Positions 29,138-54,179 of a stretch of DNA of 64,000 nucleotides are shown here, piece by piece (position 1 is the stretch's first letter; the number at the start of each line of letters is the position of its first letter). Source of the stretch: an uncultured Bacteroidota bacterium (lineage in GTDB: Bacteria > Bacteroidota > Bacteroidia > Bacteroidales > VadinHA17); NCBI GenBank assembly GCA_937864815.1, contig CALMJY010000172.1:7322-71321 (forward strand). The letters run 5' to 3'. The notes under the pieces were generated by a model, which was not told where the DNA came from, made no database searches, and saw nothing but the letters and a program-made list of their open reading frames with translations. The position numbers and the translations under genes were made by a program.

Positions 29138-30322
29138 TTATATATACTCAAAAGTGACCTTTTTAAGCCATTTTTCTTCCAGTAAACGGGCTATCCTTTT
29201 TACGACTGTTCTTCTGATCTCCAGTTCAACAGGCAGGTTAGGGTCCTGGTGTGCGATATTTATTCTGGTACCTATAATGAAATGAATTTCGTCGCTCTCC
29301 ATGAACATCTTTACAATTTTATCAGCTGGCCCCCTCCCGAGTCTGACGCTGTTATTGAAAGTTTTAAGAAGTTCGTTAACCTTTTGCAGCGTCAGGATTC
29401 CTTCTGTCACCAGGTCAATTCCTTCAAGGAAGCTTTCGGGTGGCAGTTCGGGATCTTCAAATATAAGTTCATCAACAATTTTCCGGTTTAGCTCTCTGGC
29501 AACAATGTCTGCTGTTGTTCCGCCGCAAAGGATAACCTTACCATTATAACCGGTTACCCTGGCAGCCAGCTCCCTGTCCTTTTCCTTGTCGAAAGGAGGT
29601 CCGGTACATAAAAGCAGTTTTCTTGGTTCACGGAAATAAATTGTCGCACAGCTTATATCATCCCTGGCTTTGTAATTATCATTCTTATGAGCCATGGTCA
29701 CTATCTTACCTGAAAGCATGCTTGCCGAAATTGAAGACTCACTGGCTACAAGCCTGGCTGCATATGTTTCAATATTTTCTCTTTCCCAGCCGAAAGGAAA
29801 TTCCTCACTTCCCATCCCGCTCTGGGAGACTCCGTCGGAGCAGAATATTATCCTGTCTTCCTTTTCCGGTAAAAAGGTGCAGGTTTTAAGTACTTTACCG
29901 GCATGTTTACCCTTTTCAAGGACTACCTTTTCCCAGGCAGGCTCAAATACTGTTTTTCCCCTGAGAATAATTGATGAAGGATTATCATACTCCAGGATTG
30001 TTGCCTTTCCGCTGCTTTCAATATCAACTATGGTGAACGTGGAGTAGCTTATTTTTCTCTCGCTGCAGACAGGCAGGGTATTCATTATGATTTCAGCAAT
30101 CCTTTCAACCTGTTTGTGTTCGCGGGTAAAATTTATAGCCATTGTTGAAGTGAGTGTGGCAAGGATGTTTGCTTTTACTCCATGACCCATGCCATCTGAC
30201 AATACAGCGACCACCCTGTCTTCCTCCTTTATATACCTGTATAGGAACACATCTCCGCAGATCCTTTCCCCGTCATGGTTTCTCTGCTGACTGTTTATCT
30301 CTATGAAAAAATCGCGGTTCAC
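29138..30322 (-). CDS. SpoIIE/PP2C-type protein phosphatase with an uncharacterised ~160-aa C-terminal domain
   Basis: 394 aa. Motifs CGDVF, SDGMGHG, CSDGVSQ and DDISCATIYF. It lies 8 nt downstream of the HydS-like gene. Confidence 0.8.
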   Translation of the reverse strand: MNRDFFIEINSQQRNHDGERICGDVFLYRYIKEEDRVVAVLSDGMGHGVKANILATLTSTMAINFTREHKQVERIAEIIMNTLPVCSERKISYSTFTIVDIESSGKATILEYDNPSSIILRGKTVFEPAWEKVVLEKGKHAGKVLKTCTFLPEKEDRIIFCSDGVSQSGMGSEEFPFGWERENIETYAARLVASESSISASMLSGKIVTMAHKNDNYKARDDISCATIYFREPRKLLLCTGPPFDKEKDRELAARVTGYNGKVILCGGTTADIVARELNRKIVDELIFEDPELPPESFLEGIDLVTEGILTLQKVNELLKTFNNSVRLGRGPADKIVKMFMESDEIHFIIGTRINIAHQDPNLPVELEIRRTVVKRIARLLEEKWLKKVTFEYI

Positions 30323-30330
30323 ACTTATTT

Positions 30331-32211
30331 TCAGGTTTTTTTTGGTCTGACCTTCCTGGTTTTGTACGATTCAATGATCGAGTTCAGCATCTGTTCTGTT
30401 TCTGAAGCTCCTTCTCCCAGAAGGAATCCTATCTTCTGAACCATTTCAAGGTTCTTCTCGATAACCTCGCTTACCCTGTTGGTCACCTCCTCTCCCTGCA
30501 CTTCAGGGGAGAAGATGTCACGGATAATGGCACCGCATATTTTGTTTTTTCTGATAGGAAAGATTGAGATATTCAGTACCCTGTCCTCGAAATGAACATC
30601 CTTGCTTACAACCGGCTCATCCTCCTTTAATACAAAAGAGAACATGTTGTATACATTGAACGGGATAAGAGTCTTGAGGTCAGCACCGGCAAGACCTGGT
30701 ATTATGTCTGCAATTGCCTTTGCGTCTTCACCAATGGTGTTTATAAAACTCTGGTTTGAATGAAGTATTTTGAGACTGCTGTCAACAATGACCACTCCGG
30801 TAGGAAGCTTTTCAAGCATGTTATTCATCATGTCGGAGGCACTCTGGGCCATATCTTTTTCTTTCCTGGCCATCTCTTCCGATTCTTTAAGTGCTTTTTT
30901 GGTTTCAGCAAGCTTTTTATTGGTCTGTCGCAGCGATTCGATATACTCCTGCTTATTCCTTAGATTGAAAGTATGACACATCTCAGGTATGGCCAGACCT
31001 TTTGCCACTGTTGCCGCAAACTCACGGCATGAAAGATATCCGCAGGCTCCGCAGTTAACCTCATCATCAGGATTATCCTTTCCCACGATCTTAAGCACCT
31101 CCTGTATAGCCTCTTCCGGTGGATCGGGAATACGATGATCATCGTTCTTAAAGCTTCTTGTAAAGTCCAGCTTTGACCATTTGTCGATATCCTTCTGCCA
31201 TCTGGCTTTGTCAATTGCAGCTGATCTCTTTTCGGCATATTTTCTTACAAGGGCTCTTCTTTTGAACCTCTCTGTATGCAACTGCATTGCAGGTCCGAGA
31301 AGACAACCATGGCAGAAAAAGAGGTTGAAGTGATGCTTAATTGTATCTATGTATTTGTCGAAATCATTTACTGCTTCGAGAATATCTTCCTTCCCTGCGG
31401 CGGTGATCACACTGCTGGAAACCATATCGCGTTTTATCCCGCCTGCCTGTATTATTCCCGGTGGCAGCGGATATAATGCTCCCCAGTTACCATGCGGAGG
31501 ATCGAAATCGGAGAGTTTAACCAGTCTTTCCTGTATCTTGAACTCATCAAAGAGCTGCCTTAACTCCACAAATGTAAGTACACATTCAATAAGTTTGCCA
31601 TCATTATACTGAAGCACCTCATCCTTGGCGTCTATACATGGACCTATCTGTACTGAGGCAACCTCCGGTCCGTAAAGCTCCTTCACAACCATTGCAGTGG
31701 CAATCATTGGCGACACCAGGGGAGCAAGGTTGGGTATCATCTCGGGATGGAATTTTTCAATGAGCTTTACGATTGCAGGGCAATTGGCTGTAATCATATA
31801 TTTCCCCTCAGCTTTTGAGAACAGCATTGCATATTCCCTGGCAATGAGATCTACACCAAAGGAAACCTCATGAACATAGTCGAAGCCAAGCGATCTTATC
31901 ATGGCTACAAACTTCCTGTAATCAGTAATATCATCAAATTCAGAAGCTATGCTGGGTTCAATCAGGGCGGCTGTCTTTCTTCCCGATGAAAGCAAAGCCC
32001 TGACCTCTGTTTTCGAATCACGGAATTCAATTGCATGAGGAGAACATGATACGTAGCAGAGTCCGCAACCAATACAACGCCCGGGAATAATATACGGATG
32101 TGCCCGTTGTGGCTTAACTTCTATTGCATTTACAGGGCAGACACGTACACAGGAATAAGAATTTCTGCACTTTGCATCATTGATATATAGAACAGGCTTC
32201 CGTTCTGTCAT
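30331..32211 (-). CDS. hydS: HydS-like putative sensory [FeFe]-hydrogenase (2x[4Fe-4S] + H-cluster domain + CGACGYxxC Fe-S motif + PAS-like C-terminus)
   Basis: 626 aa. CIGCGLCYVSCSP. H-domain motifs TANCP / GPCIDAKDE / FFCHGCLLG. VNCGACGYLSCREFA...EMC. The C-terminal LPTGVVIVDSSLKILHSNQSF is PAS-like. Confidence 0.8.
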   Translation of the reverse strand: MTERKPVLYINDAKCRNSYSCVRVCPVNAIEVKPQRAHPYIIPGRCIGCGLCYVSCSPHAIEFRDSKTEVRALLSSGRKTAALIEPSIASEFDDITDYRKFVAMIRSLGFDYVHEVSFGVDLIAREYAMLFSKAEGKYMITANCPAIVKLIEKFHPEMIPNLAPLVSPMIATAMVVKELYGPEVASVQIGPCIDAKDEVLQYNDGKLIECVLTFVELRQLFDEFKIQERLVKLSDFDPPHGNWGALYPLPPGIIQAGGIKRDMVSSSVITAAGKEDILEAVNDFDKYIDTIKHHFNLFFCHGCLLGPAMQLHTERFKRRALVRKYAEKRSAAIDKARWQKDIDKWSKLDFTRSFKNDDHRIPDPPEEAIQEVLKIVGKDNPDDEVNCGACGYLSCREFAATVAKGLAIPEMCHTFNLRNKQEYIESLRQTNKKLAETKKALKESEEMARKEKDMAQSASDMMNNMLEKLPTGVVIVDSSLKILHSNQSFINTIGEDAKAIADIIPGLAGADLKTLIPFNVYNMFSFVLKEDEPVVSKDVHFEDRVLNISIFPIRKNKICGAIIRDIFSPEVQGEEVTNRVSEVIEKNLEMVQKIGFLLGEGASETEQMLNSIIESYKTRKVRPKKT

Positions 32212-33127: not shown

Positions 33128-35062
33128 ATGGAAGATATTAAGACATTCCTGGTAAATAAGGTTCTGCTTTTTGAATCGGATACACTGCCGCCTGAAACAG
33201 AAAAAAAACTGCAGCAGGTAAGACGGGAAAAACCTGATAATCCTGTTATTTATATTTCGTCTGGTACAAGCAGTATTATTGCCGGTTCGGAAAAGACCTG
33301 TGCTGCAATAAAAGAACATATTGACGAAAATGGACTTGCAGCCGACTTTGTGAAAGTGGGCTGTACCGGTCCTGCAAATTTTGAACCACTGGTATGCATT
33401 CACCTGCCGGGTAAAAACAAACTCTTTTTCAGGAATATAACTGAGGAGAAAGTTGAACCGCTGCTTAACGGGGTGTTTCATAATGATTTAAGTGAAGAGG
33501 ATATTGCCGGCCAGGCAGGAACCAGGGGATTTGAACTCTGGCCCGGTATTCCATTTATGGATGAACTTCCTTTCTTTGTAAACCAGAAGAGGATAATACT
33601 TGGAAACTGCGGATGTTATGATCCCGAAAGCATTGAGGAATACATTGCAAGGGGAGGATACAGGGCATATGCAAAAGCTATTCGTCATTACACCTTCGAG
33701 GAGGTTTGTGACATAGTTGAAAGAAGCGGGCTGCGGGGAAGGAGCGGAGGCGGATATCTCACAGGATTAAAATGGAAGCATGCCCTGAATACCTCAGCTA
33801 ATGCCAGGTATCTTATCTGTAATGCCAAGGAGAGCGACCCCGGGGCATTTACCGACAGAACGATCCTCGAAAGTGATCCGCACAGACTGCTGGAGGGTAT
33901 AGCCATAGCCTCTTATGCGATCGGAGCTGCAAACGCAATAATATTTATGAGGTCAGGATCTGATCATGCAAAAAGCAGGCTTCAGAATGCAATTGACCGT
34001 GCAAGGGAATATGGACTTTTCGGACACAATATCTTCTCCAGCGGATACAATCTTGACATAGTGATCAGGATCGAACCAGGGGCTTTCGTGTGCGGTGAGG
34101 AGACGGCACTTATCAATACTCTTGAAGGAAAAAGGGGTATGCCCAGGCTGAAACCTCCATATCCGACAAGTTCCGGTCTCTTTGGAAAACCAACAGTTAT
34201 CAATAATGTTGAGACACTGATGAATGTTCCTGTGATTATGCAGAACGGCCCCGAATGGTTCCGCAGTATAGGTACGGAAAATAGTCCTGGGACGAAGGTA
34301 TTTGCCATTGCAGGGAAAGGCCGCATGTCGGGAGTTGTTGAAGTCGAAATGGGAACATCAGTCCGGAAAATCATTGATGAAATTGCAGACGGTATTCGCG
34401 AAAGCAGGGAATTCAAAGCTGTTCAGCTCGGAGGAGCATCCGGATCCTTCCTGACAAAGGAAAACCTCGATGTTAAAATTGATTATGAGGCTCTGAGAGA
34501 AAAAGGTATAGGTATGGGAGCCGGTGGCTTTGTAATCATTGACGAGAATACCTGCATGGTTGATCTTGTGAGATATTACATGGAGTTTATCAGGAACGAG
34601 AGTTGTGGCAAGTGCATCCCATGCAGGGAAGGAACCGGAAGAATGCTCGAGATACTCGACGGCGTAATCAGAAAACCGCAGAATGAAGAATCAGGTACTA
34701 CCCTCGAAAGGTTTAAGGGAGTCATGCAGCTTGAAACAATAGCTTCAGTAATGCGTGATGCATCCCTTTGCGGTCTTGGACAGACAGCTCCAAATCCGTT
34801 TATCAGCGCTCTCAGCAACTTCAGGGATGAATTCGAGGAGCATATTTTCGACAGGAAATGCCAGGCTAACATATGCCGCGGACTGAGATCATTTTCAATT
34901 GATGTCGACAAATGTACCGGTTGTACGGCCTGTGCTGCCAAATGTCCTGTTAATGCAATTTATGGCACAAGGTTGCAGCCATTCTTTATTGTCGAGGAAA
35001 AATGCATAGGATGCGGTGTATGCTATGACATATGTAAATTCAGTGCAATTAACGTCAAATAG
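33128..35062 (+). CDS. hydB: NuoF-like FMN/NAD(H)-binding Fe-S subunit of [FeFe]-hydrogenase
   Basis: 644 aa. GRSGGGYLTGLKW, ESDPGAF, ESCGKCIPCREG and two C-terminal CxxCxxCxxxCP ferredoxin motifs. Confidence 0.9.
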   Translation: MEDIKTFLVNKVLLFESDTLPPETEKKLQQVRREKPDNPVIYISSGTSSIIAGSEKTCAAIKEHIDENGLAADFVKVGCTGPANFEPLVCIHLPGKNKLFFRNITEEKVEPLLNGVFHNDLSEEDIAGQAGTRGFELWPGIPFMDELPFFVNQKRIILGNCGCYDPESIEEYIARGGYRAYAKAIRHYTFEEVCDIVERSGLRGRSGGGYLTGLKWKHALNTSANARYLICNAKESDPGAFTDRTILESDPHRLLEGIAIASYAIGAANAIIFMRSGSDHAKSRLQNAIDRAREYGLFGHNIFSSGYNLDIVIRIEPGAFVCGEETALINTLEGKRGMPRLKPPYPTSSGLFGKPTVINNVETLMNVPVIMQNGPEWFRSIGTENSPGTKVFAIAGKGRMSGVVEVEMGTSVRKIIDEIADGIRESREFKAVQLGGASGSFLTKENLDVKIDYEALREKGIGMGAGGFVIIDENTCMVDLVRYYMEFIRNESCGKCIPCREGTGRMLEILDGVIRKPQNEESGTTLERFKGVMQLETIASVMRDASLCGLGQTAPNPFISALSNFRDEFEEHIFDRKCQANICRGLRSFSIDVDKCTGCTACAAKCPVNAIYGTRLQPFFIVEEKCIGCGVCYDICKFSAINVK

Positions 35063-35067
35063 CTATT

Positions 35068-36789
35068 ATGCTTTTTACCATACAGGTTAACAATAAAAAG
35101 ATAAAGGCAGAAAAGGGGGAAACAATACTCTCTGCCCTGAACAAGAACGGAATCATGATTCCGACTCTTTGCAGGATGAAAGATTTTACCCCTACGGGTG
35201 CATGCAGGATGTGCGTTGTTGAGGTGGAGGGTCGCGACAGGCTGGTTACCGCCTGTTCTCAGCCTGTTGAGGAGTGGATGAAGATCCATACTCATTCTCC
35301 CAGAGTGATTCAGGCTAGGAAAACCACAGTTGAACTGCTTCTTTCGAACCATCCTGACGATTGCCTCTATTGTGAACGCAATCTGAGTTGCGAACTTCAG
35401 AATCTTTCTGATGAGCTTAATATCCGGGAGCGACGAATCAGGGGCAAGAAGATAAAACCCCGCCTTGACCAGTCAAGTCCTGCCATTGTACGCGAGCTTT
35501 CAAAATGTATATTATGCGGCCGATGTGTCAGGGTATGCGAGGAGGTGGTTACTGCAAATACACTGGATTTTATAAGGAGAGGGAGGAATACGCATATCGG
35601 AGCCTCCATGGACAGGGATTTCAACTTTTCGAGCTGTATTCACTGCGGACAGTGTCTTCAGGTATGTCCCACCGGAGCACTGCATGAGAAACATAATATA
35701 ACAGAGATCCAGGAATTCCTGCATAAACCTGATATTATTAAAGTTATACAATATTCACCACAGGTTACAGCAGGAATTGCCGAGGAGCTTGGTATCAGGT
35801 ACAACAGGGATACTGACAGGATATTGAATGCAATACTTCGTAAAATAGGATTTGACAAGGTTTTTACAACAGGTTCCGGAACTGACATTTGTATTAAAGA
35901 GGTTACTGACCAGTTGCAGGAAAAGCTTGAAAAGAAGATAAGTACACCTGTTTATATCTCAGCCTGCCCGGCCTGGGTAAAATACTGTGAGCAGTTCATG
36001 CCATCATATATCCCCATGCTTTCAACAGTTAAATCTCCGCAGCAGATAACCGGGGTCCTGATAAAAACACTCGTTGCAACACAGCATAAGGTAAAACCTG
36101 AAAATATCTATTCCGTTTCTGCCACTCCATGCCTGGCAATGAAATTTGAAGCCCGTCGCGATGGTATGATGAGAAAGGGAATAAGTGACGTTGATTCAGT
36201 ATTAACAGTGAGAGAGCTTTCCAGGCTGATAAGACTTTACGGTATTGATTCTTCCAATATAGAACCAGAACCTGCAGACGAACCATTGTCAGGACGAAGT
36301 TCATCCGCAGTCCTTGCTGAGGTCTCCGGAGGATTGACAGAAGCTATTCTGAGGTCGCTTCATTTTCAAATGATTAAAAAAGAGGCGGACAGGCAGTTAT
36401 TCAGAAAACTGAGATCACCCGGTGTATTCAGGGAGGTGACTATGTTGGTTGGTGATCTGGAGGTAAAGGCTGCAGTTGTTGACGGATTGACAGGTCTGGA
36501 AAAACTGAAATCTGCAGTTGCATCAGGTAAAAACTATGATCTGATAGAAGTAATGACCTGTCCCGGAGGATGCGTTCACGGTGCAGGTCTTCCTTTCAGC
36601 GCTTCAAAAGATGACCTGAAGAGCAGGGCAAAACTTATCTATCAGACTGACGATACCGAACCTGTAAACCTTCCATGCAAATCCCCATGTCTGATAAATA
36701 TGTACGAAAAGCTCCTGAAGGAGAATTCTGAGATATCCGACAGAAAAATTTTCCACACTCATTTCGAGAAACGGAATGTCTTACTCTGA
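35068..36789 (+). CDS. hydA: [FeFe]-hydrogenase large subunit, M3 architecture (2Fe-2S, His-ligated 4Fe-4S, 2x4Fe-4S, H-domain), atypical L1 motif
   Basis: 573 aa. HPDDCLYCERNLSC, CILCGRCVRVC and CIHCGQCLQVCP. H-domain motifs ISACPAW / TPCLAMKFE / EVMTCPGGCVHG. Confidence 0.85.
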   Translation: MLFTIQVNNKKIKAEKGETILSALNKNGIMIPTLCRMKDFTPTGACRMCVVEVEGRDRLVTACSQPVEEWMKIHTHSPRVIQARKTTVELLLSNHPDDCLYCERNLSCELQNLSDELNIRERRIRGKKIKPRLDQSSPAIVRELSKCILCGRCVRVCEEVVTANTLDFIRRGRNTHIGASMDRDFNFSSCIHCGQCLQVCPTGALHEKHNITEIQEFLHKPDIIKVIQYSPQVTAGIAEELGIRYNRDTDRILNAILRKIGFDKVFTTGSGTDICIKEVTDQLQEKLEKKISTPVYISACPAWVKYCEQFMPSYIPMLSTVKSPQQITGVLIKTLVATQHKVKPENIYSVSATPCLAMKFEARRDGMMRKGISDVDSVLTVRELSRLIRLYGIDSSNIEPEPADEPLSGRSSSAVLAEVSGGLTEAILRSLHFQMIKKEADRQLFRKLRSPGVFREVTMLVGDLEVKAAVVDGLTGLEKLKSAVASGKNYDLIEVMTCPGGCVHGAGLPFSASKDDLKSRAKLIYQTDDTEPVNLPCKSPCLINMYEKLLKENSEISDRKIFHTHFEKRNVLL

Positions 36790-36801
36790 AATAATTGATC
36801 T

Positions 36802-38763
36802 ATGCTTGTTTACACAATAAAAGAGCTTTGCAGAACCTGCTATACCTGTGTCAGGGAATGTCCGGCAAAAGCAATCCGGATTGTAGGAGGCCAGGCTGAA
36901 GTTATTGATGAACGCTGCATTGTATGTGGTAATTGCACCAAAGTGTGCAGCCAGGGTGCAAAAGTCTTCCTTAATACTGTCGACAGGGTTAAGAAGATAC
37001 TTGATAGCGATGCGAAAATAGCAGCTATTGTTGCACCAAGCTTTCCTGCCGAGTTCTCTGACTTTCCGGATCACAGGGTACTGGTCGGTATGATACGGTC
37101 CTTAGGATTTGATTATGTAGCGGAAGTATCTTTCGGTGCTGACCTGGTTGCTGATAAATTCAGGCAGCTGATTGAACAGAATGAAAGATTTTATATTTCG
37201 TCCGATTGTCCTTCAATTGTAAATTACGTTAAATATTACCATCCGTCACTGTCTGACAAGCTTGCCCCCATTGTTTCACCAATGGTTGCAATGTCGAGAG
37301 TTATGAGGGAAAAATATGGCAGGGATCTTAAGATTGTTTTTATTGGTCCGTGTGTTGCCAAGAAAGCTGAGAGTCCTGAAGTTGATGAAGCTATTACATT
37401 TACAGAACTAAGGGATTTTTTTACCGAATTGAATGTTTCTGCAGACAGGGCTATAACCTCTGATTTTGATGAACCCACAGGAGGCAGAGGAGCAATATTC
37501 CCCGTTACGAGAGGATTGCTGCAGACAGCCAATATTAACGATGATGCAGTGACAGGTAATATAATTGCTGCTGAGGGGAGGATTGATTTCCAGAGTGCTC
37601 TTAAGGAGATGGAAGCAGGCCTTATTCAGGACCAGCATATGGAACTTCTTTGCTGTGAGGGATGTATTATGGGGCCCGGTTTGTCGAAGAATGGTAAACA
37701 GTATAACCGGAGATCACTTGTCAGCTCGTACGCCGGTAAGAAAATGAGCAGCCTTGATTCAAAAAAATGGAAAGAAGCAATCGAAAGTTTCAGTAAACTC
37801 GACCTTAGCTGCCAGCATAAGCCTGAAGCTCCGCGGATAGATGATCTGGGAGAAAATGATGTGGCAGATATCCTCGCCAGAATCAACAAGAAATCAAAGA
37901 AAGATCAGCTGGACTGCGGGGCATGCGGGTATGAAACATGTGTTGAACATGCCATAGCTATAAAGAAAGGAATTGCTGAAGTTGAGATGTGCCTGCCATA
38001 TACAATTGAAAAACTTCACAGATCTGTTAAGGATCTTGCTTTATCGAATGAGAAGTTGTCATCGATGAAGCAGGCACTTAAACAATCTGAAAAGCTTGCA
38101 CATATGGGACAGCTTTCTGCCGGAATAGCGCATGAGCTGAATAATCCTCTTGGAGTGGTAATAATGTACAGCAATATACTTCTGGAAGAAGCTAAAGAAG
38201 GAGATCCTGTAAGTGAGGATCTCAAGTTGATTGTAGAACAGGCCGGAAGATGCAAGAAAATCGTTGCAGGACTTCTCAATTTTGCAAGAAAAAATCAGGT
38301 CAATCACCAGTTGCTTGGTATCCGCGAGCTAATAAACAGCAGTCTTGAAGGGGTAATTATACCTGCAAAAGTAAAGATCAGCATTAATGATCAGACAACA
38401 AATCCCCAAGCGATGCTGGATCATGAGCAGATGATGCAGGTAATAACCAACCTGATTAAAAACGCGATTGATGCCATGCCATCAGACGGTGAAATAAGAA
38501 TAATGCTTGAAGATACACTTAGTGATGTAATAATAACGATATCTGATACAGGTACAGGTATAAAAGAAGAGGACAGGGCAAAAATATTTGAGCCATTCTT
38601 TACAACAAAAAGCATAGGACATGGAACCGGACTTGGACTTGCAACAGCCTATGGCATAGTTAAGATGCATAAGGGACAGATAACAGCCGAGTCGAATGAT
38701 GATCCCGAAAAAGGACCGACCGGTACAAAATTTAAAATTGTCTTACCCAGAGGGAAGGAATGA
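36802..38763 (+). CDS. hydS: HydS-like sensory [FeFe]-hydrogenase domain fused to a histidine kinase (HisKA + HATPase_c)
   Basis: 653 aa. CRTCYTCVRECP and CIVCGNCTKVCS. H-domain motifs SSDCP / GPCVAKKAE / LLCCEGCIMG. LDCGACGYETC...EMC. H-box AHELNNPL, N-box NLIKNAIDA, DTGTGI and GTGLGLA. Confidence 0.85.
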   Translation: MLVYTIKELCRTCYTCVRECPAKAIRIVGGQAEVIDERCIVCGNCTKVCSQGAKVFLNTVDRVKKILDSDAKIAAIVAPSFPAEFSDFPDHRVLVGMIRSLGFDYVAEVSFGADLVADKFRQLIEQNERFYISSDCPSIVNYVKYYHPSLSDKLAPIVSPMVAMSRVMREKYGRDLKIVFIGPCVAKKAESPEVDEAITFTELRDFFTELNVSADRAITSDFDEPTGGRGAIFPVTRGLLQTANINDDAVTGNIIAAEGRIDFQSALKEMEAGLIQDQHMELLCCEGCIMGPGLSKNGKQYNRRSLVSSYAGKKMSSLDSKKWKEAIESFSKLDLSCQHKPEAPRIDDLGENDVADILARINKKSKKDQLDCGACGYETCVEHAIAIKKGIAEVEMCLPYTIEKLHRSVKDLALSNEKLSSMKQALKQSEKLAHMGQLSAGIAHELNNPLGVVIMYSNILLEEAKEGDPVSEDLKLIVEQAGRCKKIVAGLLNFARKNQVNHQLLGIRELINSSLEGVIIPAKVKISINDQTTNPQAMLDHEQMMQVITNLIKNAIDAMPSDGEIRIMLEDTLSDVIITISDTGTGIKEEDRAKIFEPFFTTKSIGHGTGLGLATAYGIVKMHKGQITAESNDDPEKGPTGTKFKIVLPRGKE

Positions 38764-38973: not shown

Positions 38974-39369
38974 ATGAAAAAGAGCGATATTACGATACTG
39001 GTTGCAGATGATGATCCGGATTATCTTTTTCAGACAGTTTTTAATTTAAAGAAGGAAGGCTATAAAACTATGGCCGTGGAGAGCCAGGCAGAAGCAGAGG
39101 CAGTTATTGCACGATTTAAGCCCGATCTGGCTATTTTTGACCTGATGATGGAGAGTGATGACAGTGGTTTTATTCTTTGTTACAAGATAAAGAAAAAATA
39201 CCCTGATGTCCCGGTGATACTTGCCACAGCAGTATCATATGAGACCGGACTGTCATTCAGCCTCGATTCCGATCAGGCTAAATCATGGATAAGGGCAGAT
39301 CTTTATCTTGAAAAAGGAATAAGGCCTGAGCAGCTTGACCAGGAGATTATGAAACTCTTAAAACTTTGA
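38974..39369 (+). CDS. Stand-alone response-regulator receiver (CheY-like)
   Basis: 131 aa. ADDD acidic pocket, FDLMM phospho-Asp context. No output domain. Confidence 0.85.
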   Translation: MKKSDITILVADDDPDYLFQTVFNLKKEGYKTMAVESQAEAEAVIARFKPDLAIFDLMMESDDSGFILCYKIKKKYPDVPVILATAVSYETGLSFSLDSDQAKSWIRADLYLEKGIRPEQLDQEIMKLLKL

Positions 39370-39370
39370 A

Positions 39371-40507
39371 ATGGCAGTATTAAAAGTACTGGTAATCGAT
39401 GATGAACCAGGAATCCGTTCTGGTGTTTTACGGATACTGAACAATTTTCATGTCACTTATCCTTTTATGGATGAAGATTTCACATTTGAAGTTTTTGAAG
39501 CAGGTACAGGAGAGGATGGGTTGTCATTCATTGAAAAGGAGGTTCCCGACCTTCTTCTTCTCGATAACAAATTGCCGGGTATGCAGGGTATTGAAGTTCT
39601 GGAGTACATCCGAAAGAGGAATTATGATATAATGGTGGCGATGATAACCTCTTACGCTTCTCTCGATGTGGCAATACGTGCTACAAAGGATGGCGCAATT
39701 GATTTTATCCCGAAACCATTCACCCCTCAGGAACTGAAGTCGAGCATTGAAAACATCACCAAGCAGCTGTATCTTAAGCGTATTACACATAAAATGAACC
39801 AGGAGGGAAAGAAAATACGTTATCAGTTCCTTTCGGTTTTGTCACATGAGTTAAAGGCTCCCCTCAATGCACTTGAAGGTTATCTGCGGATGATGCAGGA
39901 AAAGCAGGCAGGCGACCGGATTGAAGATTATGCAACTCCTATTGAGAGATCGCTTCAACGTGTGCAGGGGATGAGAAATCTTATTATGGATCTGCTTGAT
40001 TTTACAAAGATACGTCTCGAAAGAAAAGAGGAAAAGATTCAGGAGGTAAACCTTGCAGAAGTTGCATCAAATGCAATGGTTACAATACAGCCTTATGCAA
40101 TACAAATGGATGTCATAATGAACCTTGATGTCAGGTCTGATGTTATTATAATGGCTGACCCCGATGATATGGAAATAGTTTTCAATAATCTTATATCAAA
40201 TGCTGTTAAGTATAACAAAAGAGGAGGTAAGGTTGAACTAACAATTGACAATTCAGATAATGAGGCAATTGTGATCTTTGCCGATACAGGAATCGGTATT
40301 ACAAAGGATGATACGGAAAATCTCTTTACTGAATTTGTCAGGATAAAGAATGAAAAGACAAGGAATATCTCCGGAAGTGGTCTGGGACTATCCATTGTGA
40401 AGAAAGTCATAGGGCTATACCATGGTACGATTAAGGTGGAAAGTACTCCTGAGGTAGGCACTGTATTTACTGTCAGATTACCTAAAAAACAATTAACAAT
40501 AAGCTGA
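39371..40507 (+). CDS. REC-HisKA-HATPase hybrid kinase (N-terminal receiver)
   Basis: 378 aa. VIDDEPG / LLLLDNKLPG receiver. H-box SHELKAPLN, NLISNAVKYN, DTGIGI and GSGLGLS. Confidence 0.85.
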   Translation: MAVLKVLVIDDEPGIRSGVLRILNNFHVTYPFMDEDFTFEVFEAGTGEDGLSFIEKEVPDLLLLDNKLPGMQGIEVLEYIRKRNYDIMVAMITSYASLDVAIRATKDGAIDFIPKPFTPQELKSSIENITKQLYLKRITHKMNQEGKKIRYQFLSVLSHELKAPLNALEGYLRMMQEKQAGDRIEDYATPIERSLQRVQGMRNLIMDLLDFTKIRLERKEEKIQEVNLAEVASNAMVTIQPYAIQMDVIMNLDVRSDVIIMADPDDMEIVFNNLISNAVKYNKRGGKVELTIDNSDNEAIVIFADTGIGITKDDTENLFTEFVRIKNEKTRNISGSGLGLSIVKKVIGLYHGTIKVESTPEVGTVFTVRLPKKQLTIS

Positions 40508-40515
40508 AATGAATT

Positions 40516-41130
40516 ATGAAACTACCAGGAAAAACAGTTGAAAGACTTAGTGAATACAGAAGAACCCTTCTGGATTGCCTTAATGAGAAGAGAAACTTTA
40601 TCTTCTCTCATGATCTTGCAGCCCGGCTGCATATTACGGCCGTACAGGTCAGACGCGATCTGATGCTGATCGGATATTCAAGTGTTCTCCGCAAAGGTTA
40701 TGATGTGAGGGAGCTGATCGATACAATCGGTAAGATCATTGACTCTGAAAAGAGTTTGAATGTTGCTGTTGTCGGTATTGGTAATCTCGGCAGAGCAGTT
40801 GCCGGCTACTTCAGGGGAAAACGTTCAAAGCTCAACCTTGTAGCCTCTTTCGACAATGACCCTCACAAGGTTAATAAAGTTATATCAGGTGTTAAATGCT
40901 ATTCATATGCTGATTGCGAAAAACTGGTAAAGGAACTCAATATCAGAATTGCTATTCTTACCGTTCCGCCTGAATTTGCTAAAGAGATAACTGAGGAAAT
41001 CGTCAGATTTGGCATTAAAGGGATTCTCAATTTTACTACTATTCCTCTCAATGTTCCATCCGGTGTATATCTTGAGGAATATGATATGATTACATCCATC
41101 GAGAAGGTTGCATATTTTGTGAAAGAATAA
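40516..41130 (+). CDS. rex: Redox-sensing transcriptional repressor Rex
   Basis: 204 aa. N-terminal winged-helix (ERLSEYRRTL...). Rossmann motif VAVVGIGNLGRA. Confidence 0.9.
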   Translation: MKLPGKTVERLSEYRRTLLDCLNEKRNFIFSHDLAARLHITAVQVRRDLMLIGYSSVLRKGYDVRELIDTIGKIIDSEKSLNVAVVGIGNLGRAVAGYFRGKRSKLNLVASFDNDPHKVNKVISGVKCYSYADCEKLVKELNIRIAILTVPPEFAKEITEEIVRFGIKGILNFTTIPLNVPSGVYLEEYDMITSIEKVAYFVKE

Positions 41131-41151
41131 ATCTAGCTTTCACGGGGAGTA

Positions 41152-42072
41152 ATGAATGTTTACAGAAGCTTTGAGGAGGCCAGGAATATAAGGAATCCGG
41201 TGGTCACCACTGGTTCATTTGATGGTGTCCACATTGGACATAAAACCATACTTAAAAGGCTGAGAACTCTGGCAGAAATAAACAATGGCGAATCAGTACT
41301 TATTACTTTCGATCCCCATCCCAGGAAGGTTCTGTATCCTGAAACTGCAGGTAAAGGGCTTAAGCTAATTAACTCACAACAGGAAAAACTGGAACTGCTG
41401 GCAAAAGCAGGACTCGATAATGTCATAATAATAAGATTTTCACTTGAGTTTTCCAGAATAACAAGTGAGAACTTTGTCAGGGATTTTCTTCATGATATTC
41501 TTAAAGCCAGAGTTATCGTTGCTGGTTTTAATCACCATTTCGGATTCAATCAGGAAGGTGACTACAAACAATTATGGGGATGGCAGGAAAAATATAACTT
41601 TTTGGCTGAAGAAATTCCTGAACAGGAGGTCGAGAATGAAACTGTCAGTTCAACCAAGATCCGCAAAGCTATAAGTGAAGGTTATATTCAGAGGGCTAAT
41701 GCCTATCTAGATCATTATTATATTGTTATTGGAACCCCCATAAATTATCAATCAGAACAGGAAACCGGTTTACCTGTTCTTTGGGAAATACCGATAACTG
41801 AAGAGTGCAAATTACTGCCCTCACCCGGAATCTATGCTGTATCAGCAGAGTCAGTTAACTTTTATTCCAGAGCAATGGTTATTGTTAGTCCGAAAGAAGA
41901 CAGCCAGCCTGAATTGCTGGCACATTTCTTTGACGCACCACCAGACGGGGATAATCTTAACATTACCATGTCATTTCACAAGAAAATCCATAGTGCAGTT
42001 AATTATTCCGAACCAAAGGATGTTTCAAGGATACAATCTGCAAGAGAGGAGATATCAGAGCTTATTTACTGA
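41152..42072 (+). CDS. ribF: RibF-like FMN adenylyltransferase with a degenerate riboflavin-kinase module
   Basis: 306 aa. The N-terminal GSFDGVHIGH FMNAT motif is intact. The C-terminal module has GLPVLW where GxPTAN is expected. Confidence 0.8.
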   Translation: MNVYRSFEEARNIRNPVVTTGSFDGVHIGHKTILKRLRTLAEINNGESVLITFDPHPRKVLYPETAGKGLKLINSQQEKLELLAKAGLDNVIIIRFSLEFSRITSENFVRDFLHDILKARVIVAGFNHHFGFNQEGDYKQLWGWQEKYNFLAEEIPEQEVENETVSSTKIRKAISEGYIQRANAYLDHYYIVIGTPINYQSEQETGLPVLWEIPITEECKLLPSPGIYAVSAESVNFYSRAMVIVSPKEDSQPELLAHFFDAPPDGDNLNITMSFHKKIHSAVNYSEPKDVSRIQSAREEISELIY

Positions 42073-42134: not shown

Positions 42135-43559
42135 ATGAGGTTTTCACCGGAAAAATTAAATATACCCGATCAGAGGATGAAGCCGTTTATCGATCCCTCT
42201 GAGTTATGGGACCTGATAAACAATACCAGGCCCGATAAGATCCTTGTAAGGGAAGTTATTGCCAAATCTCTTGATAAAAATCGTCTTACCCTGAAGGAAA
42301 CTGCAGTGCTTATCAATGCTGTAGGAACTGATCTTGCTGATGAAATTAAAGAAGGAGCAAGGGAGCTAAAGCAGCGTGTGTATGGAAACAGGATTGTACT
42401 TTTTGCCCCGCTTTATGTTGGCAACAGATGCACCAATAATTGCAAATACTGCGGATTCAGGGCTTCAAATGCCGATGCAGTTCGTAAAACCCTTGATGAT
42501 AACGAGATCATACAGGAAGTTGAAGCACTTGAGGATAACGGACAGAAACGACTGATTCTTGTGTATGGTGAGCATCCTGAATATTCTCCCGAATATATTG
42601 CACATACAGTAAGGCTGGTATATGGTGTAAAAAAAGGACCGGGTGAAATCCGGAGAGTTAATATAAATGCTGCTCCACTTGATATTGAAGGTTATAGAAA
42701 AGTAGGAGAGGCCGGGATTGGTACATATCAGGTATTCCAGGAGACCTACCATCCTGAAGCCTACACCTGGTATCACCTGGGGGGTAAAAAGAAAGATTAT
42801 GAATGGCGTCTCACTTCACTTGACAGAGCCCAGGAAGCCGGAATTGATGATGTTGGAATTGGCGCCCTCTTCGGCCTGTACGACTGGAGATTTGAAGTGC
42901 TTGGACTGGTAAGACATACAAATCACCTTGAAGCATGCTACAATGTAGGACCTCATACCATTTCATTCCCCAGGATAAAAGACGCGCAAACTCTTAACCT
43001 CGACAAAAAATACGAAACAAGCGACGATGATTTCAAAAAGCTTGTTGCTATACTGAGGCTGGCTGTTCCATATACAGGACTTATTCTTACTGCCAGGGAA
43101 ACTCCTGATGTAAGAAGAGAGGTTTTGCAGTATGGTGTTTCACAAATAGACGGCGGTACAAAACTTGAACTTGGCTCTTATTCTGATTCAAAAAACGAAG
43201 AACAGAACCTGAACAGGGAACAATTCAAAATCAATGATCCACGGTCGCTGGCCGAGGTGATTGATGAGCTGCTTACAAACGATTATCTTCCTTCTTTCTG
43301 CACATCATGCTACCGCATGGGAAGAACCGGAGAACACTTCATGGAATTCTCAGTTCCGGGATTTATAAAAAGATTCTGCACACCGAATGCCATACTCACA
43401 CTTTCCGAATACATTTGTGACTATGGAAGAGGAGACACCATAAATAAAGGATGGATGGTAATAGAAAAAAACCTTGAGAAGCTTGAACCTCCTGTTGCTG
43501 AAAAGACCAGGGAAAAAATAACACGAATAAAAGCCGGAGAACGCGACCTTTATTTCTAA
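42135..43559 (+). CDS. hydG: [FeFe]-hydrogenase maturase HydG (radical SAM tyrosine lyase)
   Basis: 474 aa. CTNNCKYCGF CX3CX2C motif. C-terminal CTSCYRMGRTGEHFMEF...FC auxiliary-cluster motif. Confidence 0.9.
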   Translation: MRFSPEKLNIPDQRMKPFIDPSELWDLINNTRPDKILVREVIAKSLDKNRLTLKETAVLINAVGTDLADEIKEGARELKQRVYGNRIVLFAPLYVGNRCTNNCKYCGFRASNADAVRKTLDDNEIIQEVEALEDNGQKRLILVYGEHPEYSPEYIAHTVRLVYGVKKGPGEIRRVNINAAPLDIEGYRKVGEAGIGTYQVFQETYHPEAYTWYHLGGKKKDYEWRLTSLDRAQEAGIDDVGIGALFGLYDWRFEVLGLVRHTNHLEACYNVGPHTISFPRIKDAQTLNLDKKYETSDDDFKKLVAILRLAVPYTGLILTARETPDVRREVLQYGVSQIDGGTKLELGSYSDSKNEEQNLNREQFKINDPRSLAEVIDELLTNDYLPSFCTSCYRMGRTGEHFMEFSVPGFIKRFCTPNAILTLSEYICDYGRGDTINKGWMVIEKNLEKLEPPVAEKTREKITRIKAGERDLYF

Positions 43560-43584
43560 GAAATTACATTAACTATAATCAATA

Positions 43585-44109
43585 ATGATAAGAATCCTTG
43601 GCATAAAGATCATTGACAGAATCAAGGAAGCAGGCTTAACTCAGGGCATTCTTTCGGAACATGCTTCTGTAATTACAACAAGACTGGGATTTCATGAGGT
43701 GACTGATGAGGTTTGCAGCCGCGAAGCTTACCTGGTAATACATCTGAACGGAGATACTGACGAATATCTGATTCTGGAGAATGAGCTTAAGCTTATTGGT
43801 GGAATTGAGCTGAGGGAAATGATTTTCAATGCTGATAAAGAGCCTCTGAATGTTCTTAAAGACGGTACTCAGACTGAGATCATGGGAATTCTTGTTGAGC
43901 GCGAAAAAGAAGTGGTGCAGACAGTCCAGAAAATTCTCACATCCTATGGATGCAATATACGCACACGCCTGGGTGTCAATGAGATTTTCTTCGGACAACC
44001 TGCAGGACTGATAATCCTTGAACTCAAGGGAGATGCCGTGCAACGATCACTTCTCGAGAAGGATCTCAAGGCACTTGAAAAAGTTCATGTGAGAACGATG
44101 GTTTTTTAA
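43585..44109 (+). CDS. TM1266-like 'iron-only hydrogenase system regulator' family protein, tandem two-domain form
   Basis: 174 aa. The two halves align (I.GI ... IL ... I.TRLG..E ... L.GD ... LE..LK ... R.M.F). The position directly after hydG is typical for this family. Confidence 0.55.
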   Translation: MIRILGIKIIDRIKEAGLTQGILSEHASVITTRLGFHEVTDEVCSREAYLVIHLNGDTDEYLILENELKLIGGIELREMIFNADKEPLNVLKDGTQTEIMGILVEREKEVVQTVQKILTSYGCNIRTRLGVNEIFFGQPAGLIILELKGDAVQRSLLEKDLKALEKVHVRTMVF

Positions 44110-52812: not shown

Positions 52813-52813
52813 G

Positions 52814-53629: not shown

Positions 53630-54179
53630 AGAGATTATTATAGCAGGTTTCGGAGGACAGGGTGTTCTGTCGATGGGGAAAATAATGGCATATTCCGCAG
53701 TGATGCAGAATATGGAAGTCAGCTGGATGCCTGCATACGGCCCTGAAATGAGAGGTGGAACAGCAAATGTTACTGTTATAATTAGCAGCGAGAGGATCAG
53801 TTCACCCATTATCAGACACTTTGATACGGCCATAATACTCAATCAGCAATCTCTCGACAAATTTGAACCGTCAATAAAACCAGGAGGAGTTCTTATTTAT
53901 GACGGTAATGGCATAACAAGACATCCTGAACGTAAAGACATTTCAGTTTACAGGGTTGATGCTGCAGAAGAAGCCGGCAGGATGAATATGTCGAAGGTAT
54001 TCAATATGATAGTGCTGGGAGGATTTATTAAAGTACGGCCTGTTATAAAGCTGGAGTATGTAATACAAGGGCTTAAAAAATCCCTCCCTGAACGTTATCA
54101 CAGCCTTATTCCCTTGAATGAGAAGGCACTTATACGTGGAGAAGAGATAATCCATGAGGTCCAGAAATCAAAGAATTAG
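53622..54179 (+). CDS. 2-oxoacid:ferredoxin oxidoreductase gamma subunit
   Basis: Start at the ATG at 53622 (MTEEIIIAGFGGQGV), overlapping the beta-subunit stop (ATGACTGA). Confidence 0.85.
   Translation: MTEEIIIAGFGGQGVLSMGKIMAYSAVMQNMEVSWMPAYGPEMRGGTANVTVIISSERISSPIIRHFDTAIILNQQSLDKFEPSIKPGGVLIYDGNGITRHPERKDISVYRVDAAEEAGRMNMSKVFNMIVLGGFIKVRPVIKLEYVIQGLKKSLPERYHSLIPLNEKALIRGEEIIHEVQKSKN

What the first reader, a model, noticed from the sequence alone, without database searches (positions are those of the whole stretch)
35956..35970. The NuoE/NuoF-coupled HydA lacks the proton-relay cysteine (ISACP instead of TSCCP)
Seen: the canonical H-cluster motifs are L1 TSCCPxW, L2 MPCxxKxxE and L3 ExMxCxxGCxxG. 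The structural HydA here reads ISACPAW (Ala299-Cys300), TPCLAMKFE and EVMTCPGGCVHGAGLP. The Ala codon GCC is at 35962-35964, so a single-base error from TGC is not enough to explain it.

The two sensor paralogs read TANCP (31777-31791, minus strand) and SSDCP (37198-37212), with GPC in L2. All four [4Fe-4S]H-ligating Cys are retained in all three proteins.

Established: the first Cys of TSCCP (C299 in Clostridium pasteurianum CpI numbering) is the proton-transfer residue next to the bridging amine. Its replacement strongly impairs turnover in prototypical enzymes.

Inference: the window contains no canonical catalytic H-domain despite full-length NuoE/F partners and the hydE/hydG maturases. 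Either this HydA uses an alternative proton path, or it is a slow or sensory-like enzyme.
Basis: partly seen in the sequence, partly recalled or inferred. Interest (0 to 1): 0.65.

Follow-up and report, generated by a model that had tools for sequence, protein, structure and literature searches.

The report
Hydrogenase subunit with dismantled proton relay
In a large group of uncultured soil and sediment Bacteroidales, the gene annotated as the catalytic subunit of an NADH/ferredoxin-linked [FeFe] hydrogenase has lost the proton-delivery residues and several cofactor contacts of fast hydrogenases, so it is probably not an ordinary hydrogen-producing enzyme, although annotation pipelines count it as one.

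Summary
HydA (35068-36789) reads I297-S298-A299-C300-P301, and Ala299 aligns without gaps to the proton-relay Cys299 of C. pasteurianum CpI.

It is not an error. None of 120 close homologues and none of 80 species-level genomes has Cys there. The gene is under strong purifying selection (dN/dS about 0.04).

- E279, E282 and R286 of the relay are also replaced.
- So are K358 (now Met), M353, S232, F417 and G418.
- The four [4Fe-4S]H cysteines stay invariant.
- The protein scores below all three NCBIfam group-A cut-offs.

The gene sits in a conserved cassette: HydC-HydB-HydA-HydS(kinase)-RR-RR/HK-Rex-RibF. In other phyla, and in some Bacteroidota, this cassette carries a fully canonical HydA. 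One Bacteroidales lineage shows a graded series from canonical to this state. In that lineage HydABC evolves faster than its own regulators, the reverse of the canonical pattern.

The window's clade has fixed a new acidic residue, Glu418, next to the position that faces the amine bridge.

Best reading: a low-turnover, sensory-like module with a rewired proton route. Main rival: a hydrogenase-like Fe-S protein with no di-iron site. No characterised relative exists.

The parts
35068..36789 (+). HydA*: M3/NuoG-type [FeFe]-hydrogenase homologue of 573 aa, with a non-canonical H-cluster pocket
   Evidence: Pfam finds Fer2_4, NADH-G_4Fe-4S_3, Fer4 and Fe_hyd_lg_C (1e-64). It aligns over its full length to 8a6t_A, 7q4v_A, 7p5h_A and CpI. 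It scores below the NCBIfam cut-offs: 578.8 vs 765, 414.7 vs 900, 341.2 vs 405.95.
35956..35970 (+). L1 motif ISACP: Ala299 in place of the proton-relay Cys; Cys300 ([4Fe-4S]H ligand) kept
   Evidence: Clade counts for position 299 are.
35902..35925 (+). Positions of CpI E279, E282 and R286, here V279, Q282 and K286 (inner proton pathway lost)
   Evidence: Ungapped alignment to CpI. In the clade, 279 is I/L/V/T/M, 282 is mostly Q, and 286 is R/K/N.
35755..35763 (+). S230-P231-Q232 in place of CpI A230-P231-S232 (contact region of the proximal cyanide)
   Evidence: Position 232 is hypervariable in the clade: L30, M28, A12, V4, Q2, F2, I1, S1.
36124..36150 (+). L2 motif TPCLAMKFE: M353T, C355 kept, K358M, K359 and E361 kept
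   Evidence: In the clade M358 is 77/80 and K359 and E361 are 80/80.
36316..36321 (+). A417-E418 in place of CpI F417-G418; Glu418 is the candidate start of an alternative proton route
   Evidence: E418 is 79 Glu + 1 Asp of 80; A417 is 74/80. The CpI F417 position lies near the amine bridge (PMC10055695).
36547..36594 (+). L3 motif EVMTCPGGCVHGAGLP: M497, C499 and C503 equivalents kept; N505H; GGQ changed to AGL
33128..35062 (+). HydB (NuoF-like, 644 aa). FMN/NADH core, N3-type [4Fe-4S] and C-terminal 2x[4Fe-4S] are kept. [quoted passage not shown] NAKE replaces NADE (33821-33832).
   Evidence: Cluster naming follows PMC8880783.
32636..33109 (+). HydC (NuoE-like [2Fe-2S] thioredoxin-like ferredoxin); all four Cys kept
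36802..38763 (+). HydS-HK: H-domain (SSDCP, GPCVAKKAE) + Cys-rich FeS domain + HisKA/HATPase. A group C1-type putative H2 sensor kinase, 12 nt downstream of hydA.
   Evidence: Its pocket motifs are conserved across all cassettes.
30331..32211 (-). HydS-PAS-type sensor paralogue (TANCP, GPCIDAKDE), divergently transcribed
29138..30322 (-). PP2C/SpoIIE-family phosphatase, partner of the HydS-PAS sensor
   Evidence: Synteny is shown.
38974..40507 (+). Response regulator (38974-39369) and hybrid response-regulator/histidine kinase (39371-40507)
   Evidence: Synteny is shown.
40516..42072 (+). Rex-type redox-sensing repressor (40516-41130) and RibF FAD synthetase (41152-42072)
   Evidence: Both are fixed members of the Bacteroidales cassette.
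42135..44109 (+). HydG maturase (42135-43559) and a TM1266/CPF_0552-family small protein (43585-44109)
46724..47815 (-). HydE maturase
   Evidence: TIGR03956, 348.5 bits vs cut-off 254.6.

Best explanation
HydA here is the orthologue of the catalytic subunit of a sensor-linked group-A3 HydABC cassette. In one Bacteroidales lineage it has been remodelled away from the fast group-A design.

Shown:
- The group-A proton pathway (C299, E279, E282, R286, and the entry His in most of the clade) and several first-shell contacts of the di-iron subsite (K358, M353, S232, F417, G418) are replaced.
- The [4Fe-4S]H cysteines, M497, P324/Q325 and the whole N-terminal Fe-S relay are kept.
- The protein is under strong purifying selection.

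Inferred (my committed mechanism): the protein still accepts an H-cluster made by HydE/HydG. It works as a low-turnover, 'sensory-like' H2-converting module, as the Ala-bearing group C and D enzymes do. Electrons pass through its Fe-S chain to and from the HydB flavin and ferredoxin-like domains. Protons reach the amine bridge by a different route, whose best candidate first residue is the clade-invariant Glu418 beside the shrunken residue 417. It is therefore not a high-flux electron-bifurcating hydrogenase. It more likely couples slowly to the NAD(H)/ferredoxin pools, alongside the co-transcribed HydS kinase and Rex.
For: - Alignment register and substitutions.
- Clade-wide fixation.
- Purifying selection: median dN/dS is HydA 0.037, HydB 0.029, HydS-HK 0.039.
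- Glu418 is 79 Glu + 1 Asp of 80, although mean consensus frequency in the H-domain is only 0.795. A299, M358, T268, T272, A417, Q325, S319 and M497 are each 74-80 of 80.
- Orthology to canonical enzymes: the same cassette and the shared HPDDCLYC signature occur with a canonical HydA in many phyla. Among 113 non-redundant cassette-type HydA, 68 are canonical, 15 intermediate and 30 have lost C299.
- Precedent: group C TmHydS and group D TamHydS carry Ala at this position, lack the group-A pathway, still bind the H-cluster, and have low activity with alternative routes proposed (PMC10407848, PMC10055695).
- Thr at position 353 occurs in the active enzyme CpII.
- HydG and HydE are encoded nearby.
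Against: - K358 anchors the distal cyanide and is kept in the co-encoded HydS-HK and in the canonical group-A sequences compared here, as well as in the one group-B motif I found quoted. Here it is Met.
- Position 232 is occupied by bulky, variable residues (L, M, F).
- Across the wider lineage the di-iron pocket positions are as variable as average sites, or more so. Residue 299 can be Phe, His or Leu in sister lineages. This fits loss of the subsite before the window's clade arose.
- The maturases are explained by the two HydS sensors alone.
- I could not inspect a three-dimensional model, so the position of Glu418 relative to the cofactor is inferred from its sequence neighbour only.
Confidence: 0.45

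Rival explanations
1. Pseudo-hydrogenase. The H-domain binds only the [4Fe-4S] cubane and no di-iron subsite, as in eukaryotic Nar1/NARF-type proteins. HydA*BC is then an NAD(H)/ferredoxin-linked Fe-S/flavin module with no H2 chemistry of its own. It could act as an electron sink or redox input for the HydS kinase encoded immediately downstream.
For: - In the 20-member family, first-shell positions sit at the 56th-92nd percentile of H-domain variability (A272 92nd, F417 78th, K358 70th, I268 69th, V423 65th, G418 56th). They are nearly invariant in 70 canonical sequences. The four Cys are invariant, and the N-terminal Fe-S domain is more conserved than in canonical enzymes (mean entropy 1.40 vs 2.00).
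- The decay is graded across syntenic orthologues: SSCCP, then loss of K358, then SSDCP, ISSCP, ISNCP, SSFCP, STLCP and ISACP.
- HydA, HydB and HydC evolve faster than their regulators in this lineage (HydA minus HydS-HK identity -12.1, vs +8.5 in canonical cassettes).
- K358M, with bulky variable residues at 232.
- HydS-HK keeps its pocket (APS, SPM, GPCxAKKxE) in the same genomes, so the maturases are accounted for.
Against: - Within the window's clade the pocket is not decaying. Most pocket residues are at least as conserved as the domain average, Glu418 is invariant, and dN/dS is 0.04.
- M497, P324 and Q325 are retained.
- The H-domain has no deletions.
- The co-encoded HydS-PAS sensor also has Lys at Cys+4 rather than Cys+3 in 67 orthologues, so loss of K358 may be tolerated.
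- Residue 299 also varies between phyla in HydS-HK.
Confidence: 0.33
2. Ordinary, physiologically competent electron-bifurcating or confurcating hydrogenase that has simply swapped to an equally efficient alternative proton pathway.
For: - HydC and HydB are intact, with the FMN core and the C-terminal ferredoxin-like domain.
- Selection is strongly purifying.
- A conserved acidic residue at 418 could serve as the relay.
- C299D shows that a carboxylate can replace the Cys in CpI (PMC6226526).
Against: - Too many independent first-shell changes. E279A/Q or C299A/S alone give below 1% activity in CpI.
- K358, M353 and F417 are also changed.
- The entry His is Tyr or Phe in 64 of 80.
- The protein scores below every NCBIfam group-A cut-off.
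- The pocket differs between sister lineages sharing the same operon, which is not expected for a conserved high-flux catalyst.
- HydB has lost its N-terminal cluster and changed the NADE motif.
Confidence: 0.1
3. Sequencing or assembly error, or a pseudogene.
For: None found.
Against: - The ORF is intact.
- Two base changes are needed to go from TGC to GCC.
- The same state is found in 120 close protein clusters and in the 79 species genomes of the clade examined.
- dN/dS is about 0.04.
Confidence: 0.01

Closest known systems
Group A3 electron-bifurcating [FeFe]-hydrogenase HydABC (T. kivui 8A6T, A. woodii 7Q4V, T. maritima 7P5H)
   Same: - M3/NuoG-type HydA with [2Fe-2S], a His-ligated [4Fe-4S], 2x[4Fe-4S] and an H-domain.
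- Adjacent NuoE-like HydC and NuoF-like HydB with a C-terminal 2x[4Fe-4S] domain.
- Full-length alignment (E 2.9e-127 to 8a6t_A).
- The same sensor-linked cassette as canonical members in many phyla.
   Different: - Relay residues C299, E279, E282 and R286 are replaced.
- K358, M353, S232, F417 and G418 are replaced.
- The score falls below the NCBIfam group-A cut-offs.
- HydB lacks its N-terminal [2Fe-2S] ligands and reads NAKE for NADE.
Putative sensory [FeFe]-hydrogenases, group C (TmHydS) and group D (TamHydS)
   Same: - Ala at the C299 position.
- Group-A proton-pathway residues replaced by non-protonatable ones.
- A small residue at M353.
- Low activity, with alternative proton routes proposed from residues on the 417-423 segment (Y223 and E252).
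   Different: - Those enzymes are M2-type proteins with a C-terminal Cys-rich/PAS module and no NuoE/NuoF partners.
- The HydS-HK sensor encoded in this window and the Firmicutes HydS-like proteins recovered keep the Lys at Cys+3, and HydS-HK also keeps the APS motif.
- HydA* is phylogenetically a group-A3 orthologue, not a group C or D member.
CpI C299A and E279A/Q variants (e.g. PDB 6GLY)
   Same: The same residue type at 299 and loss of the carboxylate at 279. 6gly_A is the best-scoring CpI sequence.
   Different: Those are laboratory single mutants, with below 1% activity. Here the changes are natural, multiple, and fixed under selection in about 200 species.
H-cluster-less relatives: HydA of NiFe-HydABCSL (7T2R) and eukaryotic Nar1/NARF-type hydrogenase-like proteins
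   Same: A hydrogenase-derived subunit that serves as an Fe-S module without H2 catalysis. Nar1-type proteins keep the cubane cysteines (from my own knowledge).
   Different: NiFe-HydA lacks the H-cluster motifs altogether and matches only residues 4-205 here. HydA* keeps a complete H-domain, M497 and the L3 motif.

Membership tests
[FeFe]-hydrogenase group A (prototypical or A3 bifurcating) | H-domain (Fe_hyd_lg_C) with the four [4Fe-4S]H/bridging cysteines | tested here: met
   PF02906 at 1e-64. C300, C355, C498 and C502 are invariant in 80/80.
[FeFe]-hydrogenase group A (prototypical or A3 bifurcating) | L1 TSCCPxW (TSCSP in many A3) with the proton-relay Cys299 | tested here: not met
   The motif reads ISACPAW. 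Cys299 is absent from all 120 close homologues and all 80 clade sequences.
[FeFe]-hydrogenase group A (prototypical or A3 bifurcating) | L2 MPCxxKxxE with Met353 and Lys358 | tested here: not met
   The motif reads TPCLAMKFE: T353 and M358, with only K359 and E361 kept.
[FeFe]-hydrogenase group A (prototypical or A3 bifurcating) | L3 ExMxCxxGCxxG | tested here: met
   The motif reads EVMTCPGGCVHG.
[FeFe]-hydrogenase group A (prototypical or A3 bifurcating) | Proton pathway E279-S319-E282(-R286) | tested here: not met
   The residues are V279, S319, Q282 and K286. Only S319 is kept.
[FeFe]-hydrogenase group A (prototypical or A3 bifurcating) | Curated family score cut-offs (NCBIfam NF040763, NF040762, TIGR02512) | tested here: not met
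   Scores are 578.8 < 765, 414.7 < 900 and 341.2 < 405.95.
[FeFe]-hydrogenase group A (prototypical or A3 bifurcating) | M3 N-terminal Fe-S domains and adjacent NuoE/NuoF-like subunits | tested here: met
[FeFe]-hydrogenase group A (prototypical or A3 bifurcating) | High H2 turnover; NADH + ferredoxin-coupled H2 evolution or uptake | not testable with these tools
   No characterised or cultured member was found. All named hits are MAGs.
Bfu-type bifurcating HydBC core | NuoF FMN/NADH core, N3-type [4Fe-4S], C-terminal 2x[4Fe-4S] domain, and HydC [2Fe-2S] | tested here: met
   However, conserved loops are altered (GRSGGGY for GRGGGGF; NAKE for NADE).
Bfu-type bifurcating HydBC core | [quoted passage not shown] | tested here: not met
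   The domain reads SSGTSS...GCTGPA, against TCG...GCxGxC in canonical cassettes. This is an accessory cluster, so its loss alone does not exclude bifurcation.
Sensory [FeFe]-hydrogenases (groups C and D) | Relay Cys replaced (mostly by Ala) and group-A pathway absent | tested here: met
   The feature is described in PMC10407848.
Sensory [FeFe]-hydrogenases (groups C and D) | M2-type architecture with a C-terminal Cys-rich FeS domain and a PAS or kinase output | tested here: not met
   HydA has no PF04060, PAS or HisKA domain. The two neighbouring HydS genes do.
Sensory [FeFe]-hydrogenases (groups C and D) | H-cluster bound, low activity, signalling role | not testable with these tools
   This needs maturation, FTIR and activity assays.

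The most novel reading that the evidence does not exclude
HydA*BC is not a hydrogenase at all. It is a di-iron-free, hydrogenase-derived Fe-S/flavin complex that works with the co-translated HydS histidine kinase. It either drains the electrons released when the sensor oxidises H2 into NAD+/ferredoxin, or feeds the cellular redox state into the sensor. That would make it a signalling complex built from a decommissioned bifurcating hydrogenase.
Probability: 0.15. Interest if true: 0.8.

Novelty: new variant of a known kind. Interest (0 to 1): 0.62.

Why it matters
1. Annotation. Pipelines name these proteins 'iron-only hydrogenase group A' or 'HndD'. Metagenomic surveys would therefore count them as H2-producing bifurcating hydrogenases. 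The clade covers at least 193 GTDB species of fen, soil, sediment and digester Bacteroidales, so H2 budgets inferred from gene counts could be wrong for an abundant guild.

2. A natural experiment. The graded series of syntenic orthologues, from canonical to fully remodelled, shows which outer-sphere residues the H-cluster needs and in what order they can be lost.

3. A testable proton-route hypothesis. An NuoEF-coupled enzyme with a group C/D-like active site and a clade-invariant Glu418 gives a concrete case for alternative proton routes. That question is still open for the sensory hydrogenases.

4. A new class of pseudo-enzyme, if the di-iron site is gone. It would be a bacterial counterpart of Nar1-type proteins inside an electron-bifurcation scaffold.

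Tried and rejected
- B. thetaiotaomicron. Its 'group A3' catalytic subunit gave 0.22% of CrHydA1 activity and about 5 TPM (PMC12578642). I could not obtain its sequence, so I do not know whether it belongs to this lineage. It did not appear in any of the three genome scans, and all named relatives are MAGs.
- Expression. No RNA run holds the gene. Only partial DNA matches in soil metagenomes were found.
- Structure modelling was not run. The tool returns confidence and secondary structure, not coordinates, so a proton route could not be traced.
- My own error, corrected. I first called the lost HydB N-terminal cluster 'B2' and read it as evidence against bifurcation. PMC8880783 shows that the N-terminal cluster is B5, and that B2 is ligated by Cys in the core and linker. 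Three of the four Cys named for B2, and the candidate His, are present here; the fourth Cys is absent from every cassette-type HydB compared, canonical ones included. I withdrew that argument.
- The human-gut MAG hit L227 is a chance match in a non-coding frame.
- Literature searches for 'SACP', 'TSCSP', and group A3 plus Bacteroid* found no description of this variant. The only SACP hit is a Chlorella ASACPGW conjecture.
- Relaxed-selection decay inside the window's own clade is rejected. dN/dS is 0.04 and pocket residues are conserved. The acceleration lies on deeper branches.
Full report
**What is in the sequence.** The ORF 35068-36789 (+) encodes a 573-aa M3/NuoG-type [FeFe]-hydrogenase homologue. 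Its domains are Fer2_4, NADH-G_4Fe-4S_3, two ferredoxin-type clusters, Fe_hyd_lg_C at 1e-64, and a weak small-subunit tail. Bases 35956-35970 read ATC TCA GCC TGC CCG, which is I297 S298 A299 C300 P301. HMMER aligns the protein without gaps through this region to T. kivui HydA1 (8a6t_A, E 2.9e-127), A. woodii HydA1, T. maritima HydA and CpI. The best-scoring CpI entry is 6gly_A, whose own sequence carries Ala at this position. Between residues 230 and 361 the numbering happens to coincide with CpI. A tblastn search with four canonical HydA sequences finds only these three H-domains in the window. hydG and hydE are present.

**The change is much larger than one residue.** Read against CpI:

| CpI residue | Here |
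|---|---|
| A230 | S |
| S232 | Q |
| E279 | V |
| E282 | Q |
| R286 | K |
| C299 | A |
| M353 | T |
| K358 | M |
| F417 | A |
| G418 | E |
| V423 | L |
| N505 | H |

- Kept: C300, C355, C499, C503, P231, S319, P324, Q325, K359, E361 and M497.
- The CpI H569 position, recently proposed as the proton entry point (preprint 10.64898/2026.09.22.753672), is Tyr or Phe in 64 of 80 clade members.
- In CpI, E279A/Q or C299A/S alone give below 1% activity. E282Q gives 8% (PMC6226526).
- The protein scores below all three curated NCBIfam cut-offs for group-A hydrogenases.

**It is a clade, not an accident.**
- Of the 120 best protein clusters (79-95% identity, Bacteroidales/Rikenellaceae-labelled MAGs), none has Cys299. 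The counts are Ala 108, Val 6, Thr 3, Ser 2.
- A genome scan found 193 relatives among GTDB species genomes. In the clade alignment (79 of the best 80 loci plus the window), position 299 is Ala 74, Val 3, Ser 2, Ile 1 and position 358 is Met 77. The four Cys, K359, E361, Q325 and S319 are invariant.
- Pairwise dN/dS in the clade is 0.037 for hydA, against 0.029 for hydB and 0.039 for hydS-HK. The gene is functional and constrained.
- Position 418 is Glu in 79 and Asp in 1 of 80, although the mean consensus frequency in the H-domain is only 0.795.
- Position 232 is hypervariable (L, M, A, V, Q, F...). Position 279 is always hydrophobic or Thr.

**Genomic setting.** The loci of the clade long enough to show it (of 80 species) share one arrangement:
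- PP2C and HydS-PAS on the minus strand.
- Then HydC-HydB-HydA-HydS(HisKA)-RR-RR/HK-Rex-RibF.
- Usually followed by HydG, a TM1266-like gene and HydE.

Distant relatives at 40-45% HydA identity keep the eight-gene core; one of them (L085) lacks RibF. They read STLCP, ISSCP, ISNCP, SSFCP and SSCCP at L1.

**Origin.** The core (Rex)-HydC-HydB-HydA-HydS-HK-RR-RR/HK also occurs in MAGs labelled Verrucomicrobiota, Planctomycetota, Hydrogenedentota, Elusimicrobia, Ignavibacteria-type lineages, Neomarinimicrobiota and Myxococcota, and in some Bacteroidota.
- There HydA is fully canonical: TSC[C/S]P, E279/E282/R286/S319, MPCTAKKFE and APxAFGV.
- Canonical and remodelled proteins share the N-terminal signature HPDDCLYC, which other HydABC types lack.
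- Among 113 non-redundant cassette-type HydA, 68 are canonical, 15 keep C299 but have lost E279, E282 or K358, and 30 have lost C299. The 80 loci of the window's clade are not counted here.
- Nearly all intermediate and remodelled forms are Bacteroidota-labelled and carry Rex-RibF downstream. The main exception seen is L228, labelled Lentisphaeria.
- This is a graded series within one orthologous gene.

**Tests of constraint.**
- I compared a 20-member sample of the remodelled lineage with 70 canonical 50%-cluster representatives.
  - First-shell positions that are almost invariant in canonical enzymes fall at the 56th-92nd percentile of H-domain variability in the lineage (A272, F417, G418, V423, K358, I268).
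  - The four Cys stay invariant.
  - The N-terminal Fe-S domain is more conserved than in canonical enzymes (mean entropy 1.40 vs 2.00). The H-domain is less conserved (2.30 vs 1.67).
  - C299, E279, E282 and K358 were used to define the canonical set, so only the other positions are an independent test.
- I also compared each subunit's pairwise identity with that of HydS-HK, the sensor kinase in the same operon.
  - In canonical cassettes the differences are +8.5 points for HydA, +11.2 for HydB and +4.5 for HydC.
  - In the remodelled lineage they are -12.1, -5.3 and -14.8.
  - The whole enzymatic module sped up relative to the regulators.
- The HydS-HK pocket motifs (APSFPAEF, SxxCP, SPM, GPCxAKKxE, CCxGCIMGPG) are conserved in both settings.

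**The partners.**
- HydC keeps its four Cys.
- HydB keeps the FMN/NADH core, the N3-type cluster motif, the HxxxxxC-x4-C linker motif and the C-terminal 2x[4Fe-4S] domain.
- HydB's N-terminal thioredoxin-like domain has lost the Cys that canonical cassette-type HydB conserve. It reads SSGTSS...GCTGPA against TCG...GCxGxC.
- Its NADE motif reads NAKE. The same N-terminal loss occurred independently in L081, L099, L101 and L118.
- According to PMC8880783 this N-terminal cluster is B5, an accessory cluster. I therefore draw no conclusion about bifurcation from it.

**How it most likely works.**

*Shown:* the group-A proton route and several cofactor contacts are gone, the cubane site and the electron-relay domains are kept, and the protein is under purifying selection.

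*Inferred:* two readings remain.
1. The protein still binds an H-cluster and behaves like the Ala-bearing group C and D enzymes, which bind the cofactor, turn over slowly and use other proton routes (PMC10407848, PMC10055695).
   - The clade-invariant Glu418 sits next to residue 417. The equivalent of that residue in TmHydS lies near the amine bridge. This makes Glu418 the obvious candidate relay.
   - Thr353 occurs in the active enzyme CpII.
   - I give this reading 0.45.
2. The di-iron subsite is lost and only the cubane remains.
   - Supporting points: K358M, bulky variable residues at 232, the lineage-wide variability of the pocket, and Phe, His or Leu at 299 in sister lineages.
   - Weakening points: the pocket is well conserved inside the window's clade, and the co-encoded HydS-PAS sensor also has Lys at Cys+4 instead of Cys+3 in 67 orthologues.
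   - I give this reading 0.33.

An ordinary fast enzyme with a perfect substitute pathway gets 0.1. An artefact gets about 0.

**Comparison with what is known.**
- By ancestry and architecture this is a group-A3 HydABC.
- By active-site chemistry it resembles the group C and D sensory enzymes.
- By the most radical reading it resembles H-cluster-less relatives.
- It fails four sequence-defined membership tests for group A: L1, L2, the proton pathway and the curated score cut-offs.
- It fails the architectural test for groups C and D.
- I found no paper describing an NuoEF-coupled M3 HydA with this active site.
- The nearest experimental lead is that the B. thetaiotaomicron 'A3' catalytic subunit showed 0.22% of CrHydA1 activity and minimal transcription (PMC12578642). 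I could not obtain its sequence, so the link is untested.

**Verdict.** This is a new variant of a known kind, present in about 200 species, with a clear evolutionary trajectory and direct experimental tests. Interest 0.62.

Noticed in passing
window 36802-38763 (HydS-HK), residue 135: The sensor kinase has Asp at the relay-Cys position (SSDCP) in all Bacteroidota cassettes examined. Other phyla have Thr, Ser, Asn, Pro or Ala. C299D is the one relay substitution that keeps activity in CpI (PMC6226526), so this sensor may be more proton-competent than the 'enzyme' next to it.
   Followed up: partly
window 30331-32211 (-), L2 motif GPCIDAKDE: The HydS-PAS paralogue lacks Lys at Cys+3 and has it at Cys+4 in 67 orthologues. 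This is the same shift as in HydA*. It may mean that Lys359 can take over the cyanide contact.
   Followed up: partly
window 33257-33274 and 33821-33832 (HydB): [quoted passage not shown] The conserved NADE motif of the flavin/NADH pocket reads NAKE. Sister lineages read NAVE, NAAE or NAGE. The N-terminal loss recurs independently in L081, L099, L101 and L118.
   Followed up: partly
PDB 7q4v_A and loci L093-L166: Many canonical A3 HydA, including A. woodii HydA1, read TSCSP. That puts Ser at the position of the [4Fe-4S]H ligand Cys300. The variant is mentioned in PMC11406978, but I did not find how the cubane is ligated.
   Followed up: no
window 41152-42072: RibF (FAD synthetase/riboflavin kinase) is a fixed last gene of the Bacteroidales cassette, directly after Rex. 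A flavin-supply gene tied to an FMN-dependent complex is suggestive, but I did not explore it.
   Followed up: no
loci L113, L117, L118, L120: Ignavibacteria/Melioribacteraceae loci carry two HydC-HydB-HydA sets, one on each side of the HydS-HK/RR genes.
   Followed up: no
locus L040 (JBLNAO010000350.1): A 4.4-kb contig labelled Chloroflexota carries a HydA 77% identical to the Bacteroidales clade. This is probably a binning error.
   Followed up: no
protein P0122: A 4122-aa predicted protein has seven HydA-like stretches and scores nearly as high as the clade representative. It may be a fusion or mis-call of repeated hydrogenase domains.
   Followed up: no
window 47996-50053 and 51739-54179: An ADP-forming acyl-CoA synthetase and a VorAB-type 2-oxoacid:ferredoxin oxidoreductase lie next to the hyd locus. 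They are a source of reduced ferredoxin. No hydF was seen among the ORFs I scanned.
   Followed up: partly
window 20248-23574: A 1108-aa protein whose only recognised domain is a C-terminal SpoIIE/PP2C phosphatase. It is a second PP2C-type signalling protein about 6 kb from the hyd regulators.
   Followed up: no
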